NCBI GenBank assembly: GCA_964016885.1
Contig: OZ024740.1
Coordinates: 371,008,001-371,072,000, forward strand
Direction of reading: 5' to 3'
Source: Eledone cirrhosa
Lineage: Eukaryota
DNA length: 64,000 bases
This document shows, in pieces, positions 6,400 to 52,480 of the stretch. A model generated the notes under the pieces. That model worked only from the letters and a program-made list of their open reading frames with translations, made no database searches and was not told the origin of the DNA. Numbering within the stretch: position 1 is the first letter of the stretch; the number at the start of each line of letters is the position of its first letter. Position numbers and translations under genes: made by a program.

Positions 6400-6448
6400 A
6401 AAAGATTCTTAACGTTTTGGACGCTAGTCTTTTATCAGAAGAAAGAAT
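6400..6448 (-). ncRNA. decayed minimal hammerhead ribozyme in a Penelope-type terminal-repeat remnant
   Basis: Minus strand reads TTCTT-CTGATAA-AAGAC TAGC GTCC-AAAA-CGTTA-AGAA; both core boxes carry a G>A change. Lies next to (TA)n at 6268-6317. Confidence 0.4.
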
Positions 6449-6504
6449 GAGAAATTAAAGAAGAAATAGAAAGATTAAGGAGATACATAGTCTCTGCTAC
6501 CTAG

Positions 6505-7220
6505 GGGACCAAATTAGCAGTGATGGTGGTTTTTCAAAAAGTACAGTAGCCAGAAAGAAGACTGGTTGGAAAACGTTCAGAGAGATACTACCACAGCTAG
6601 CTATACAGTTTCTCTCCCTCAGAATGAAGCAGACTGTATGGTAAAGAAATGTAAAGAAATGAAGCAAGCGTGCTATGGTGGATGTGTAATAGTAGTATAC
6701 GTGAGCAACAAGATATCAATGAGCTGAGAGAAAAACTGAACATAAGAGGCATCAGGTGCAGTGTGCAAGAGGAGACTGCAATAGTATGAACATGTAATGC
6801 ATATGAAGGATGACAGCTGCATAAAGAAATTAATGGTACTTGAAATCAAAGGAACCCTTGGAAGTGGAAGACCTAGGAAAACTTGAGTTGATGCGGTGTA
6901 AACCGACCTCATGCAGCTGAACCTCACAAAGGAGATGACACAAGATGAGAAAACTGACAATATTCAATAATACAAGGAACTCTCTTTCCCAGGCAAGTGG
7001 AATGAATGCAACAAAATCAGGATAGTTAACCCACGTAACTCCCTCTACCCTAAACCTGAAGAATTATAGAGGTGTTACAAGACCCATTTTCTATCCACCA
7101 GTATACTCCTAAAATCCCAGCCACCATGCCACTTATCCCCTTCTCCATCTTAAACCCGAAGTAAAGAGATGTAACAACTCTCAGGTCCTCACCTGCCAAT
7201 ATACTCCTGGCTACTTTCCC
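6505..7220 (+). mobile_element. old, degenerate RTE-clade LINE 3' fragment
   Basis: Aligns with the RTE copy at 55.4-56.7 kb (LGDQISSDGG, GWKTFREILPQL, GRPRKT); many stops. Confidence 0.8.
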
Positions 7221-8056
7221 AACCCATGCTAGCAAGGAAATCTAGGAGGTACCTTAACTGATTCGCCTTCCCTGCTTAACCCTTGCATCCCCAACACTTT
7301 CCCAACCCAAGAAAATCTGGCTCACTCCAAATGCGACTCCACCTATCCAAACACTTGCCCTAAGCAGTATATAAATACTTCCTTTTTAGGCCAATAAGGG
7401 ACCACCATGACCTCCACCCCACACCCTCCAGCAATGAAATGTCGGTACCCCACCCTCAACAAGATCGTGTACACTGAGCACCCTAGTGCTGTAATGAAAT
7501 AGTGATGGTGCCACTACAAAAGCAACCAGTCCACTCTTATATACACATACATATATTCCATATATACAATATAGTAAAATGTTTGTCTATTTAACTAAAA
7601 TGATTGAAATTAAAAAACGCGAGCTAACAGAAATATTATTAAAGAGAGATAAGCAGGAACATAAAAAAAAAGTCTAGAGTTAGGTCCCTTATATTTCTAA
7701 TAGTTATTGCCTATTAAACTTAATTACAAGAGAGCCTATAATGTGGTTGACATTAGAAAGAATATTTATCCGGCGAAATCATGCAAAATAAAACATGAGC
7801 ATCTCCAAGGATAGTAGCTCCAATTAAATACTGACTTGGTCTGTGGTGGACCAACCAATGTCAGCATGGACAAACTGACATTAAATGATGATGATAATGG
7901 AGGATAAGACAAAAAACAGATCAAGGTGATGCGTTCATACCAGCCTAGAATCTCATACTATAATACTTGGGTGGCATAACAGAAAGCTTATGATAAGGGA
8001 TAAAATGACGACATTGACCCTTGGCTCAACATCACTTCTGTGAAGCAGAACCTCTG

Positions 8057-8370
8057 AGTAGAAGCACTCCATTGTCTTGTTACAATCAGGAAATTGTGGA
8101 TCGAGAAGCCACAACTCCACTACCTCACAGTAGAAGCACTCCATTGTCTAGTGACGAGCAGGAAATCATGGATCAAGAAACCACGACTCCACTACCTCAC
8201 AGTAGAAGCACTCCATTGTCTAGTGACGATCAAGAAATCGTGGATCAAGAAACCACGACTCCATTACCTCACAGTAGAAGCATTCCATTGTCTTGTGACA
8301 AGCAGGAAATCATGGATCAAGAAGCCATAACTCCATTACCTCACAGTAGAAGCACTCCATTGTTTTGTTA
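8057..8370 (+). repeat. 72-bp minisatellite, about 4.3 copies
   Basis: AGTAGAAGCA(C/T)TCCATTGT starts at 8057, 8129, 8201, 8273 and 8345. Confidence 0.97.
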
Positions 8371-9109
8371 CACTGCAGAGTAAACAGAAGATGGACAGGA
8401 GTGGTGAACCCTCAAGAACAATAAAAGAAAAATGACAAAATAAAAGTAACAAAGCAATGAGCTAATACAAAAGGTGTGTAAGAACTGATGAAGCTTCCAC
8501 ATGACAACAGGTGGTTCATGGTCATGCAAATAAGCAATGTGACTTTACAATCAAAATTGGGCGTTCTGAAGTATAATAGTGGTTTCTAATAACAAGATCA
8601 GTTCGGTCACATCAACCCCAGTATTTAACTGGTACTTTATTTTATCAACCCTGGAATGATGAAAGGCAAAATTGATGGAATTGAGCTCATAATGTAGAAA
8701 GTCATAATTAAATAACAAAGCAATTTGTCTGACACTCTACCAATACTACCAATCCAAATAATGACAATGTGCTATATAATGAAGAGGAATTAGAGCCAGA
8801 TTTTAAAAGACATTTAAATGATAGTATGTTGTAAAAGAGTAATTATACCATAAAACAGGCATTTTAAGATGTTGAATGGTTTTACAGAAAATGATCATAA
8901 TTTACACTAGACTCCAATATGACGAGCAGCAGGTCAGCAGAACCAAGAGGTGCTCTGGCCCAAATGAGCTGGTGGGTCACCTTATTTGACTTTTTTATTT
9001 CCTTAAATCATATCTTTTTAATTATATCTGTGCATTATATAATCATCTAATTATTAAACATTTTAAACATATTTTAATATAAAGGGTGAATTATAGGTAA
9101 CCAAAGGAT

Positions 9110-50349: not shown

Positions 50350-51505
50350 AGAAATTCCATTTTGTGTCCCAAATGCAAAGTTTGGGTGCATAAAAGATGT
50401 AGTGGGATCACAGGTAAGCTAACTAAGAACATAGATTTTACATGTGGCCGGTGTTCTGGGGCAATAAGTAGCAGCAAGTGCCCACAAAATACTAGCTCTT
50501 TCAACTGCGCAGAGGGTTCTATAGAAATAGTGGACAGCTTCCGTTACCTGGGTGACAAAATCAGCAGTGGGGGAGGGTGCTCTGAAAGTACAGTAGCTAG
50601 AGTCAGAACTGGGTAGAAAAAGTTCAGAGAGCTTATACCACTATTAGCCGCTAAAGGGTTCTCCCTAGAAATGAAAGGCAGGTTGTACGATGCCTGCATA
50701 CGAACAGCAATGTTGCATGGCAGTGAGACCTGGGCATTGTGTGCAGAGGATATACGCAGACTAGAGAGAAACGAAGCTTGCATGCTCCGCTGGATGTGTA
50801 ATAGTAATATACGTGAACGACAAAGCATAAACGAACTAAGGAAAAAATTAGAAATAAGAGGGATCAGATGTTGTTTACTCGAGAGAAGGCTACGTTGGTA
50901 TGGTCACGTGATGCGCATGAAAGACGACAGCTGTATAACAAAGTGCAGGGCAATAAAGATAGACGGTAGCCACGGAATAGGCAGACCCAGAAAAACCTGG
51001 GACGAGCTGATAAACTCCGACCTCACACACTTACACCTCACCAAGACAATGTCACTGGACCGAGACCTTTGGCGGTACTCAGTAATAGAGAAGACCTGCC
51101 TTACCTAAATACAAAGTAAAGCCTACTACAGTCAGTAGGCATCTCTAACAAAATACACCCCCGTCCCACCCACCCCACCCCCACCCCATCCACACCGCCC
51201 CCTTCTATGTAAAGTTATGTTGGTGCCACACCATCCAGGCCGAAACAAATGAGATTGTGAAGGTGTCACGACAAAAAAACACACAGTCCACGCTGTAATG
51301 TGGCCATGTAGGCAACACGGTAAAAACCTCCCAGACCCACACTGTAAACGTGGTTGGTGTTAGGAAGGGCATCCAACTGTAGAAAACCTGCCAGACAGTC
51401 CTATGCGAGCAAGACAATCACTCTTGCCTCAAGTGGGAAAACCCCCGTCCAAACCCATGCAAGCGTGGAACACGGACGTTAAACGTTGATGATGATGATG
51501 ATGAT
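50350..51505 (+). mobile_element. RTE-clade LINE, 5'-truncated young copy 1 (one TGG>TAG stop at 50614-50616)
   Basis: Motifs FRYLG, AMLHGSETW, RRLRWYGHVMR, GRPRKTW; (GAT)n tail; near-identical to the 55.4 kb copy. Confidence 0.93.
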
Positions 51506-51831
51506 ATATATACACTTAGAAAATGTAGAAAATTTTGAATGCAGAAAATAACTGAACACAGTTGATTACTAAAAATAATAGGTTAGGAAATCAGGTAAAA
51601 TACCCCTATAGACAGAAAAACATACTCAGCAGCCGCTACAGAGAATCAAACTCTGTACCTATGTGTGTGTCTCTCTCTCTCTATATATATATATATATGT
51701 GTGGATGTGTGTGTGTGTGTGTGTGTGTGTGTGTGCGTGTGCGCGTGCGTGCGTGTGTGCGTAGTGAAGCTGAATTTTGTAATAAATATCCAAGTAGGCA
51801 GAGCATGTAATTCAGGGGACGAGTAGTGTTA

Positions 51832-51970
51832 CATAAAAGATTTTATCGACAATACATTCTCCAAAAACATGAAATATGGCCAAACTACTGATGAGCTGGG
51901 AGAGTTTAGATCCTCCTAGTGAAATGTGTTTTCAGATAATGTATTGTTGATGCAATAAAATCTTTTATAT
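51832..51970 (+). ncRNA. decayed hammerhead motif between short inverted repeats
   Basis: CTGATGA (51888-51894), stem II GCTGGGAG/CTCCTAGT, GAAA (51921-51924); stems I and III eroded. Flanks ATAAAAGATTTTATCGACAATACATT and AATGTATTGTTGATGCAATAAAATCTTTTAT. Confidence 0.55.
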
Positions 51971-52435
51971 ATATATGAGCCTGTGTCTGGGTGAATTTAT
52001 CATTGCCCATGTCTTCATGTAGACACCAGTTAAAAAAAAAAACGATGCTATTCATATCCTGCAGAGTAGCAGTTCACTGGAAAAGATGAGTGGCATAAAG
52101 TAAAATACTGAAAAATATTTCAACTCATGCCCCCCATGGAAAAGCTGACTTTATATATATATATATATATATATATATATATAGCGGCGATGAATTAGTT
52201 TTGCGAGGTTTTTTATATGAAATCGTGTGTCGAAACAAATATTGTTATACTTGGGGAGGGTCATATTGCCAGAATTAATAACAGAACACACTCACTGTTT
52301 GGTTGGTTTCGCTTCTCGCTTCTGTGTCTTTTATATCGGTAATCTAACTTACTCGGTCCTCAATGTTGCCATTGACTGACCGACGGTCAAAAATAATACA
52401 GATACAATATAGACACAAACACATATATATAGTTT

Positions 52436-52480
52436 ATCATAAATCTTTCGTTGCACATCTGCAACATCGTCAGTGGTGTT
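52436..52480 (-). ncRNA. minimal hammerhead ribozyme at the 3' end of the Penelope-like element
   Basis: CACCA-CTGACGA-T-GTTGCA GATG TGCAAC-GAAA-GATTTA^TGAT. Confidence 0.75.

What the first reader, a model, noticed from the sequence alone, without database searches (positions are those of the whole stretch)
6400..52480. A hammerhead-ribozyme swarm: at least nine motifs from unrelated families in 64 kb
Seen: CTGANGA/stem II/GAAA motifs, complete or partial, at ~6420(-), 28754 (half, both strands), 30690(-), 33485 (half), 34400(-), 44280(-), 44340(+), 51900(+) and 52460(-). Stems differ between families, and most lie beside (TA)n. Established: Penelope-like elements carry minimal type I hammerheads in their terminal repeats, and non-autonomous hammerhead retroelements (retrozymes) exist. 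Inference: this genome holds a very large and diverse population of ORF-less, ribozyme-bearing mini-retroelements mobilised by the resident Neptune/Naiad elements, which protein-based annotation would miss.
Basis: partly seen in the sequence, partly recalled or inferred. Interest (0 to 1): 0.75.

Follow-up and report, generated by a model that had tools for sequence, protein, structure and literature searches.

The report
Hammerhead-bearing stubs of Penelope retroelements
The predicted self-cutting RNA motifs in this stretch are real but mostly decayed end-pieces of ordinary Penelope-type jumping genes, no denser here than in the rest of this genome, and many are likely short by-products copied from the start of the element's own RNA rather than an independent family of mobile ribozymes.

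Summary
The motifs are real. All nine sites are hammerhead (HHR) motifs or their remains, from eight dispersed repeat families. Only 2 pass a strict descriptor in the window (shuffles 0.1). The window is not a hotspot: a random 1.0 Mb of the genome gives 62 strict hits (shuffles 0-1) and 13.0 fragments per 64 kb against 12 here, about 150,000-190,000 strict motifs genome-wide by extrapolation. Seven of eight families run upstream into a Penelope-like (PLE) ORF: five Hydra-clade, two Neptune-like, no Naiad. One family (44.3 kb) stays unlinked. Both 'half' motifs belong to families with complete, long-armed, variant-core HHRs. Copies show known PLE anatomy: (TA)n target, head-to-head inversion, one-sided tail. 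In two families the short copies stop sharply about 30 nt behind a TATA-like box, in one with an excess of untemplated G, so they are likely run-off cDNAs from the capped RNA start; in family B that start lies inside the ribozyme. No RNA or cleavage data. The scan noted PLE hammerheads in this genome and run-off stubs in other genomes before. Known kind of system at unusual scale.

The parts
6321..6483 (-). Family A: 3' stub of a Neptune-like PLE; decayed minimal HHR at about 6406-6443; (TA)n at 6254-6317
   Evidence: Other copies carry the intact core; 7 of 24 upstream-selected copies have a sense-strand Neptune-type RT/EN hit upstream
28576..28793 (.). Family B: head-to-head pair of Hydra-clade pLTR stubs (arms 28659-28718 and 28731-28790), 79-nt tail on the left arm only, (TA)n on both sides; each arm holds only the 3' part of the HHR
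   Evidence: full HHR with U3-A8 core and long stem II in long copies; 3.53-kb units with 784-codon open frames
30459..30625 (+).
   Evidence: Blast match 30459-30558 to strict-hit library
30631..31600 (-). Family C: 5'-truncated old Hydra-type PLE end; intact HHR core starting at 30716; decayed thumb/EN remnant at about 31180-31610
   Evidence: Strict hit; weak tblastn match to family B ORF, E 0.013 in a 1.1-kb subject, with recognisable motifs; EN matches in sister copies L074, L062
33304..33640 (.). Family D: inverted arm 33304-33386(-), direct arm 33411-33545(+) and tail; HHR with about 60-nt stem II, family core CCGACGA (U4C), decayed at 33418 in this copy
   Evidence: one strict D hit in the random sample; Hydra-type EN remnant in shared upstream sequence, tblastn hits in 2 of 24 copies
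34336..34445 (-). Family E: young Hydra-clade pLTR stub with the best-preserved minimal HHR (core at 34431, 11-bp helix I, palindromic helix III); (TA)n at 34265-34351
   Evidence: Strict hit; fold z -3.7; parent with ORF between two pLTRs 3850 nt apart
44180..44410 (.). Family F: head-to-head pair, cores at 44303(-) and 44323(+), tail remnant on the left; no parent ORF found
   Evidence: 10 long copies examined all end upstream in TG/TA-rich DNA with no PLE ORF hit
51761..51965 (.). Family G: inverted arm plus tail (51761-51870) and direct arm with HHR core at 51888(+), helix I damaged in this copy
   Evidence: Family copies have a complete fold pattern; long copy L280 runs into a Hydra-type EN tail about 600 nt upstream
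52184..54455 (-). Family H: 5'-truncated Neptune-like PLE; ORF remnant 52720-54455 (RT C-half and GIY-YIG EN), pLTR with HHR core at 52473 (2-bp helix I), tail covering the first 27 codons, then (TA)16
   Evidence: 94% identical to a 1210-aa ORF flanked by two pLTRs in L226; 34,264 first-look candidates; ends read

Best explanation
The motifs are the predicted hammerhead ribozymes of the terminal repeats (pLTRs) of at least seven protein-coding Penelope-like retrotransposon families, left as short, mostly decayed stubs in (TA)n tracts, and many stubs likely arise when reverse transcriptase primes near the front of the element's RNA and runs off its capped start. Shown here: family membership, links to ORFs, two fixed 3' ends, head-to-head inversions, (TA)n association and sharp 5' limits in families B and E. 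Taken from the literature: the GIY-YIG endonuclease nicks AT-rich DNA and RT starts at two internal sites whose spacing is the 'tail' (PMC11167929). Inferred: a TATA/initiator promoter inside the pLTR starts the RNA; priming at the 5'-proximal start sites gives 60-270-nt cDNAs ending at +1, priming at the 3' copy gives long, randomly truncated copies; two such cDNAs join head to head. The template was likely not cut by the ribozyme, since the stubs span the cleavage site. Whether any of these hammerheads cleave, and whether stubs can be remobilised, is untested.
For: Parents: H 1210-aa ORF between pLTRs; B tandem 3.53-kb units, 784-codon frames, Hydra motifs; E; A 7 of 24; D 2 of 24 plus shared upstream DNA; C and G remnants. 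Two 3' ends: 51 and 47 of 123 B arms end at +50 and +129, and 106 of 123 are followed by TA repeats. 5' limit in B: 86 of 91 arms end within 16 nt upstream of the anchor, none at 17-90, 5 beyond; for the 61 arms not picked by the search 56/0/5, against 22-30 expected in 17-90 under constant truncation. A TATA-like box lies 29 nt before the main B end and 32 nt before the E end (read). E: of 474 exact matches to the 5' 26-mer, 141 are preceded by G, 128 by A/T, 205 by C (the templated base); G is 52% of non-C against 22% expected. Helix III is self-complementary in 46 of 60 strict hits although the descriptor asks only for the outer pairs, as in PMC4209133.
Against: No RNA data, so the start site and cap are inferred. 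In B the G excess is not specific: 3007 copies have G but 3433 have C or A before the same base, and G or C can come from the inverted arm; in E some G can come from the arm or an internal 4-nt repeat. Families A, D and G show spread 5' ends rather than one limit. 1080 B arms carry an extra T not seen in 30 long copies of that subfamily, which could mark a short master lineage. Family F has no parent ORF in 10 long copies. C, D and G links rest on decayed remnants. Window motifs other than E do not fold better than shuffles.
Confidence: 0.75

Rival explanations
1. The short elements are true non-autonomous, SINE-like or retrozyme-like families that transcribe themselves and are mobilised in trans by PLE proteins.
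For: Most window copies lack an ORF; family F is unlinked; the window's E variant is 28 of 32 short; the extra-T form of B has 1080 exact copies. Non-autonomous PLE derivatives are reported (bioRxiv 10.64898/2026.07.22.740005; PMC8557442).
Against: Seven of eight families link to ORFs; short and long E copies interleave; junctions of the B palindromes differ from copy to copy; stubs that end at +1 have lost the upstream TATA-like box; no tandem HHR array in the window.
Confidence: 0.12
2. All stubs are plain random 5' truncations of 3' pLTRs, with pile-ups caused by RT stalling or fold-back at the ribozyme's stem II hairpin.
For: 5' truncation and inversion are typical of PLEs (PMC8557442); the B limit lies in the stem II loop; A, D, G ends are spread.
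Against: In E the limit is about 70 nt upstream of the ribozyme, 32 nt behind a TATA box, with excess G; in B ends fall after the paired arm has been copied and none occur at 17-90.
Confidence: 0.12
3. The motifs are chance matches in AT-rich, microsatellite-rich DNA.
For: Seven of nine listed sites fail a strict descriptor; Rfam gives no hit.
Against: 62 hits per Mb against 0-1 in shuffles; recurrence in families; unrequested features (long helix I, palindromic helix III) appear.
Confidence: 0.01

Closest known systems
[quoted passage not shown]
   Same: Type I, short palindromic helix III, extra base after A9 in some families, U3-A8 core variant, 2-bp helix I variant, mostly single dispersed motifs, opposite-strand pairs 100-700 bp apart.
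   Different: Extrapolated 150,000-190,000 strict motifs here against about 9,000 in Xenopus in that paper (descriptors differ); stem II of about 60 nt in families B and D; activity untested here.
Hydra clade of C-terminal EN+ PLEs (Craig et al. 2021, PMC8557442), e.g. Hydra-1_Obim
   Same: Family B ORF has RW(R), DKT, CxCX5C linker, CxxC and CxH, no CCHH, C-terminal GIY-YIG, HHR in pLTR, (TA)n target.
   Different: Unit 3.5-3.9 kb with 1.1-2 kb non-coding 3' part against 'generally <3 kb'; tens of thousands of candidates (62,173 first-look). No phylogeny was run.
Neptune-type PLEs (CX2-5CxxC linker, CCHH in EN)
   Same: Family H ORF has a CX4CxxC linker and C..C..H..H in the EN; family A upstream ORF matches a Neptune-like reference from this genome.
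   Different: Neptune versus Nematis was not separated by a tree; Pfam gave no hit for the H ORF.
Anolis Poseidon PAc mechanism (Frangieh et al. 2024, PMC11167929)
   Same: Two RT start sites give an optional tail; AT-rich target; uncleaved RNA is the main template.
   Different: Tails here are about 60-95 nt against 30-40; that paper does not describe run-off stubs in the parts read.
Animal non-LTR retrozymes (PMC7229834; bioRxiv 10.64898/2026.07.22.740005)
   Same: ORF-less, type I HHR, related to PLE pLTRs.
   Different: Retrozymes are tandem units with an HHR per unit and make circular RNAs; the window copies are single or head-to-head and have ORF-bearing parents.

Membership tests
Minimal type I HHR of PLEs | CUGANGA (or U3-A8 variant), stem II, GAAA, UH and helix I in type I order | tested here: met
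   2 strict hits in window, 62 in 1 Mb, family copies complete for A, B, D, G
Minimal type I HHR of PLEs | Short palindromic helix III / loop 3 | tested here: met
   46 of 60 strict hits with short helix III
Minimal type I HHR of PLEs | Self-cleavage (as dimer or protein-assisted) | not testable with these tools
   Needs in vitro assay
EN+ Penelope-like element | Single ORF with RT and GIY-YIG EN upstream of the HHR-bearing pLTR | tested here: met
   B, E, H with long ORFs; A, C, D, G with remnants. Not met so far for F
EN+ Penelope-like element | Partial tandems, inverted 5'-truncated copy, tail at one end only | tested here: met
Hydra clade | RWK-like, DKT, CxCX5C linker, CxxC/CxH, no CCHH | tested here: met
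   By eye on family B ORF against section 11 and the supplementary alignment of PMC8557442
Hydra clade | Placement in RT phylogeny | not tested
   Reference proteins were not held as sequences
Neptune clade (A, H) | CX2-5CxxC linker and CCHH in EN | tested here: met
   H ORF; A only through similarity to a Neptune-like ORF
Naiad clade | N-terminal EN and no canonical HHR | tested here: not met
   All parent ORFs found have a C-terminal EN
Non-LTR retrozyme | Tandem units each with an HHR | tested here: not met
   No HHR-bearing tandem array among 34 TRF rows
Non-LTR retrozyme | Circular RNA monomers | not testable with these tools
   No RNA run available to lay

The most novel reading that the evidence does not exclude
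In Hydra-clade family B the element's own TATA/initiator promoter sits inside stem II of its hammerhead, so every transcript begins with half a ribozyme (GAAA, helix III, cleavage site) that cannot cut itself, while the complete ribozyme exists only at the 3' pLTR. Start-site position would act as the switch on ribozyme activity, the 5' half could be cut in trans by the 3' copy, and the tens of thousands of palindromic stubs are a genomic map of capped start sites and RT priming sites.
Probability: 0.25. Interest if true: 0.6.

Novelty: new member of a known kind. Interest (0 to 1): 0.35.

Why it matters
If the run-off reading holds, the stubs record both ends of the PLE template (capped start and two RT start sites) in thousands of copies, which makes the open question of what PLE hammerheads do directly testable: templates appear uncut, and in family B the transcript would start inside the ribozyme. 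The count also suggests one of the densest hammerhead loads I saw reported, almost all missed by Rfam and Pfam scans. The system itself is known.

Tried and rejected
Rfam scan of the window: no hammerhead at E<=10. Pfam on window ORFs and the H ORF: no PLE family. Local hotspot: rejected. 'Half ribozyme families' at 28.7 and 33.5 kb: rejected, long copies hold complete motifs. Family E as a short-only element with a fixed 5' end: rejected when long parents appeared; a first pattern for long E copies guessed the wrong upstream bases and one had a wrong gap. Cap-G in family B: not specific. Type III fold for H and an alternative cleavage site at the B 5' limit: rejected by inspection. Intron branch point as the B limit: no polypyrimidine tract downstream, judged unlikely by inspection. 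Sequencing runs: no RNA holder listed. One planned script to fix exact motif coordinates was not run, so some part boundaries are counted from earlier printouts and may be off by a few bases. Literature searches for run-off or strong-stop stubs in PLEs and for cephalopod hammerheads listed no paper describing them; only listings were seen for most hits, and subscription journals and bioRxiv supplements are not covered.
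Full report
Setting. The window is G000:C1:371008001-371072000 of a 3.0-Gb animal assembly, 36% GC and rich in microsatellites. I did not test the organism; earlier AI notes call it octopus-type.

Observation. All nine sites carry a hammerhead motif or remnant. A strict type I descriptor finds two in the window, 34431(-) and 30716(-), against 0.0-0.08 in shuffles; a looser one (long stem II, variant cores) finds the same two against 0.1. Rfam finds none. The others are damaged copies of families whose other members are complete: A, G, F. 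The two 'halves' are not half-ribozyme families. D has a CCGACGA core about 60 nt upstream of GAAA with a long stem II, decayed in this copy. B has a U3-A8 core and a long stem II in long copies and folds as a three-way junction. H has only a 2-bp helix I. Of eight folded stretches only E beats its shuffles clearly (z -3.7).

Density. In 100 evenly spaced 10-kb stretches the looser descriptor gave 62 hits, 51 with the canonical core, against 0,1,1,1,0 in five local shuffles. They fall into 17 clusters, 8 of them single, a few of which may be chance. A library of strict hits finds 203 intact or decayed fragments per Mb, 13.0 per 64 kb, against 12 in the window (the library is biased towards window families, and one F arm was missed). 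Extrapolation gives about 153,000-186,000 strict motifs and about 600,000 fragments. 49 of 58 hits with enough flank have (TA)5 within 150 nt downstream, against 15.5% of random positions.

Parents. H: the window motif lies 3' of an RT/GIY-YIG remnant 94% identical to a 1210-aa ORF flanked by two pLTRs; 34,264 first-look candidates; Neptune-type motifs. B: upstream-selected copies run into an EN about 1.15 kb upstream, in 3.53-kb tandem units with 784-codon open frames; its motifs match the Hydra clade as described in section 11 and the supplementary alignment of PMC8557442. E: two pLTRs 3850 nt apart enclose a broken Hydra-type ORF. A: 7 of 24 copies have a Neptune-type ORF upstream. D: 2 of 24 by tblastn, in upstream DNA shared by at least six copies. 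C: remnant in the window itself, E 0.013. G: EN tail in L280 and shared upstream DNA with C. F: 10 long copies end in TG/TA-rich DNA with no ORF hit; open. No parent is a Naiad.

Anatomy. Copies show head-to-head inversion with variable junctions, a tail on one arm only and (TA)n flanks. In B, 51 and 47 of 123 arms end at two sites 79 nt apart and 106 are followed by TA repeats. This matches the two RT start sites and tail shown for Anolis PAc (PMC11167929, parts 1-2 of 4 read) and the PLE structures in PMC8557442 (passages) and PMC3846280 (passages).

5' ends. In B, 86 of 91 arms end within 16 nt upstream of the anchor, none at 17-90, 5 further; for the 61 arms not chosen by the search, constant-rate truncation predicts 22-30 ends in the empty zone. 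Genome-wide exact counts: 6,440 end at one A with a non-templated neighbour (G 3007, C/A 3433), 4,069 read through, 1,080 carry an extra T. A TATA-like box lies 29 nt before that A, inside stem II. In E, long copies have a TATA box 32 nt before an A at which short copies begin; 10 of 18 sampled 26-mer matches were long. Of 474 exact matches, 141 have G, 128 A/T, 205 C before it; G is 52% of non-templated bases against 22% expected, although arm sequence and an internal repeat explain some. Pile-ups also appear in clusters 2, 4 and 5 of the random sample, but A, D and G are spread. An internal promoter in the pLTR is shown for Drosophila Penelope (PMC2377424, passages), and a TATA plus Inr-like TCACT was noted in rotifer pLTRs. 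That an extra 5' G reflects copying of the cap is recalled knowledge, not from a call.

Independence of short copies. Short and long E copies interleave across subfamilies (62 rows, one a duplicate of the window copy). The window's variant is mostly short but has 4 long copies of 32. This favours repeated production from autonomous parents over separate mini-element lineages, without excluding some.

Mechanism. Shown: families, parents, ends, target. From literature: AT-rich nicking, internal RT starts, uncut template. Inferred: promoter in the pLTR, run-off at the capped start, head-to-head joining of two cDNAs. Untested: cleavage, expression, remobilisation of stubs.

Comparison. Minimal HHRs as mostly single, PLE-derived motifs, opposite-strand pairs, the U3-A8 variant and the 2-bp helix I are all in PMC4209133 (parts 1-2 of 4 read). 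Retrozymes are tandem by definition (bioRxiv 10.64898/2026.07.22.740005, parts 1-3 of 5, supplements closed; PMC7229834, passages); the window has no such array. An octopus Hydra family with an HHR and (TA)n preference is already listed (Hydra-1_Obim). My searches listed no paper on run-off stubs in PLEs. The scan's own notes report PLE hammerheads in this genome and capped-start stubs in other genomes; I had written down the run-off idea before those look-ups, and such notes are not independent support.

Verdict. Interest 0.35; the start site inside the B ribozyme is the part worth testing.

Noticed in passing
window 54680-54830 (-): An exon of an Arf-family GTPase (Pfam Arf, E 2e-16; ARL5-like by recall); the H element lies just downstream on the same strand, probably in an intron.
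   Followed up: no
window 2417-3280 (-), 44-595 (-), 35499-36641 (-), 50281-51108 and 55401-56288 (+): Other mobile-element remnants: mariner-type transposase, BED-finger fragment, LINE RT, and two copies of a PHD-containing LINE 3' end.
   Followed up: no
window 25040-26175 and 27535-27719: Degenerate telomere-like arrays (GTTAGG / CCCTAA) facing each other about 1.4 kb apart, far inside the contig.
   Followed up: no
window 24819-24988: 85-nt-arm foldback around a (TA)n core, no hammerhead seen.
   Followed up: no
L226 ORF, about residues 245-410: The H ORF has a long asparagine-rich insert, like the N-rich inserts of rotifer Penelopes in PMC3846280.
   Followed up: no
random sample L126-L225: Many families have the predicted cleavage site inside a TATATATA run that resembles the (TA)n target, and PLE stubs nest in each other's (TA)n flanks.
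   Followed up: partly
L417:1700-2400: An internally deleted G-type copy joins an RT N-terminal half directly to the non-coding 3' part.
   Followed up: no
L285 (G000:C2:359519000-359528500): A 3.8-kb tandem array whose unit holds an inverted Neptune-type ORF fragment and a G-family stub.
   Followed up: no
window 31634-31667 (-): Another short match to a cluster-1 pLTR.
   Followed up: no
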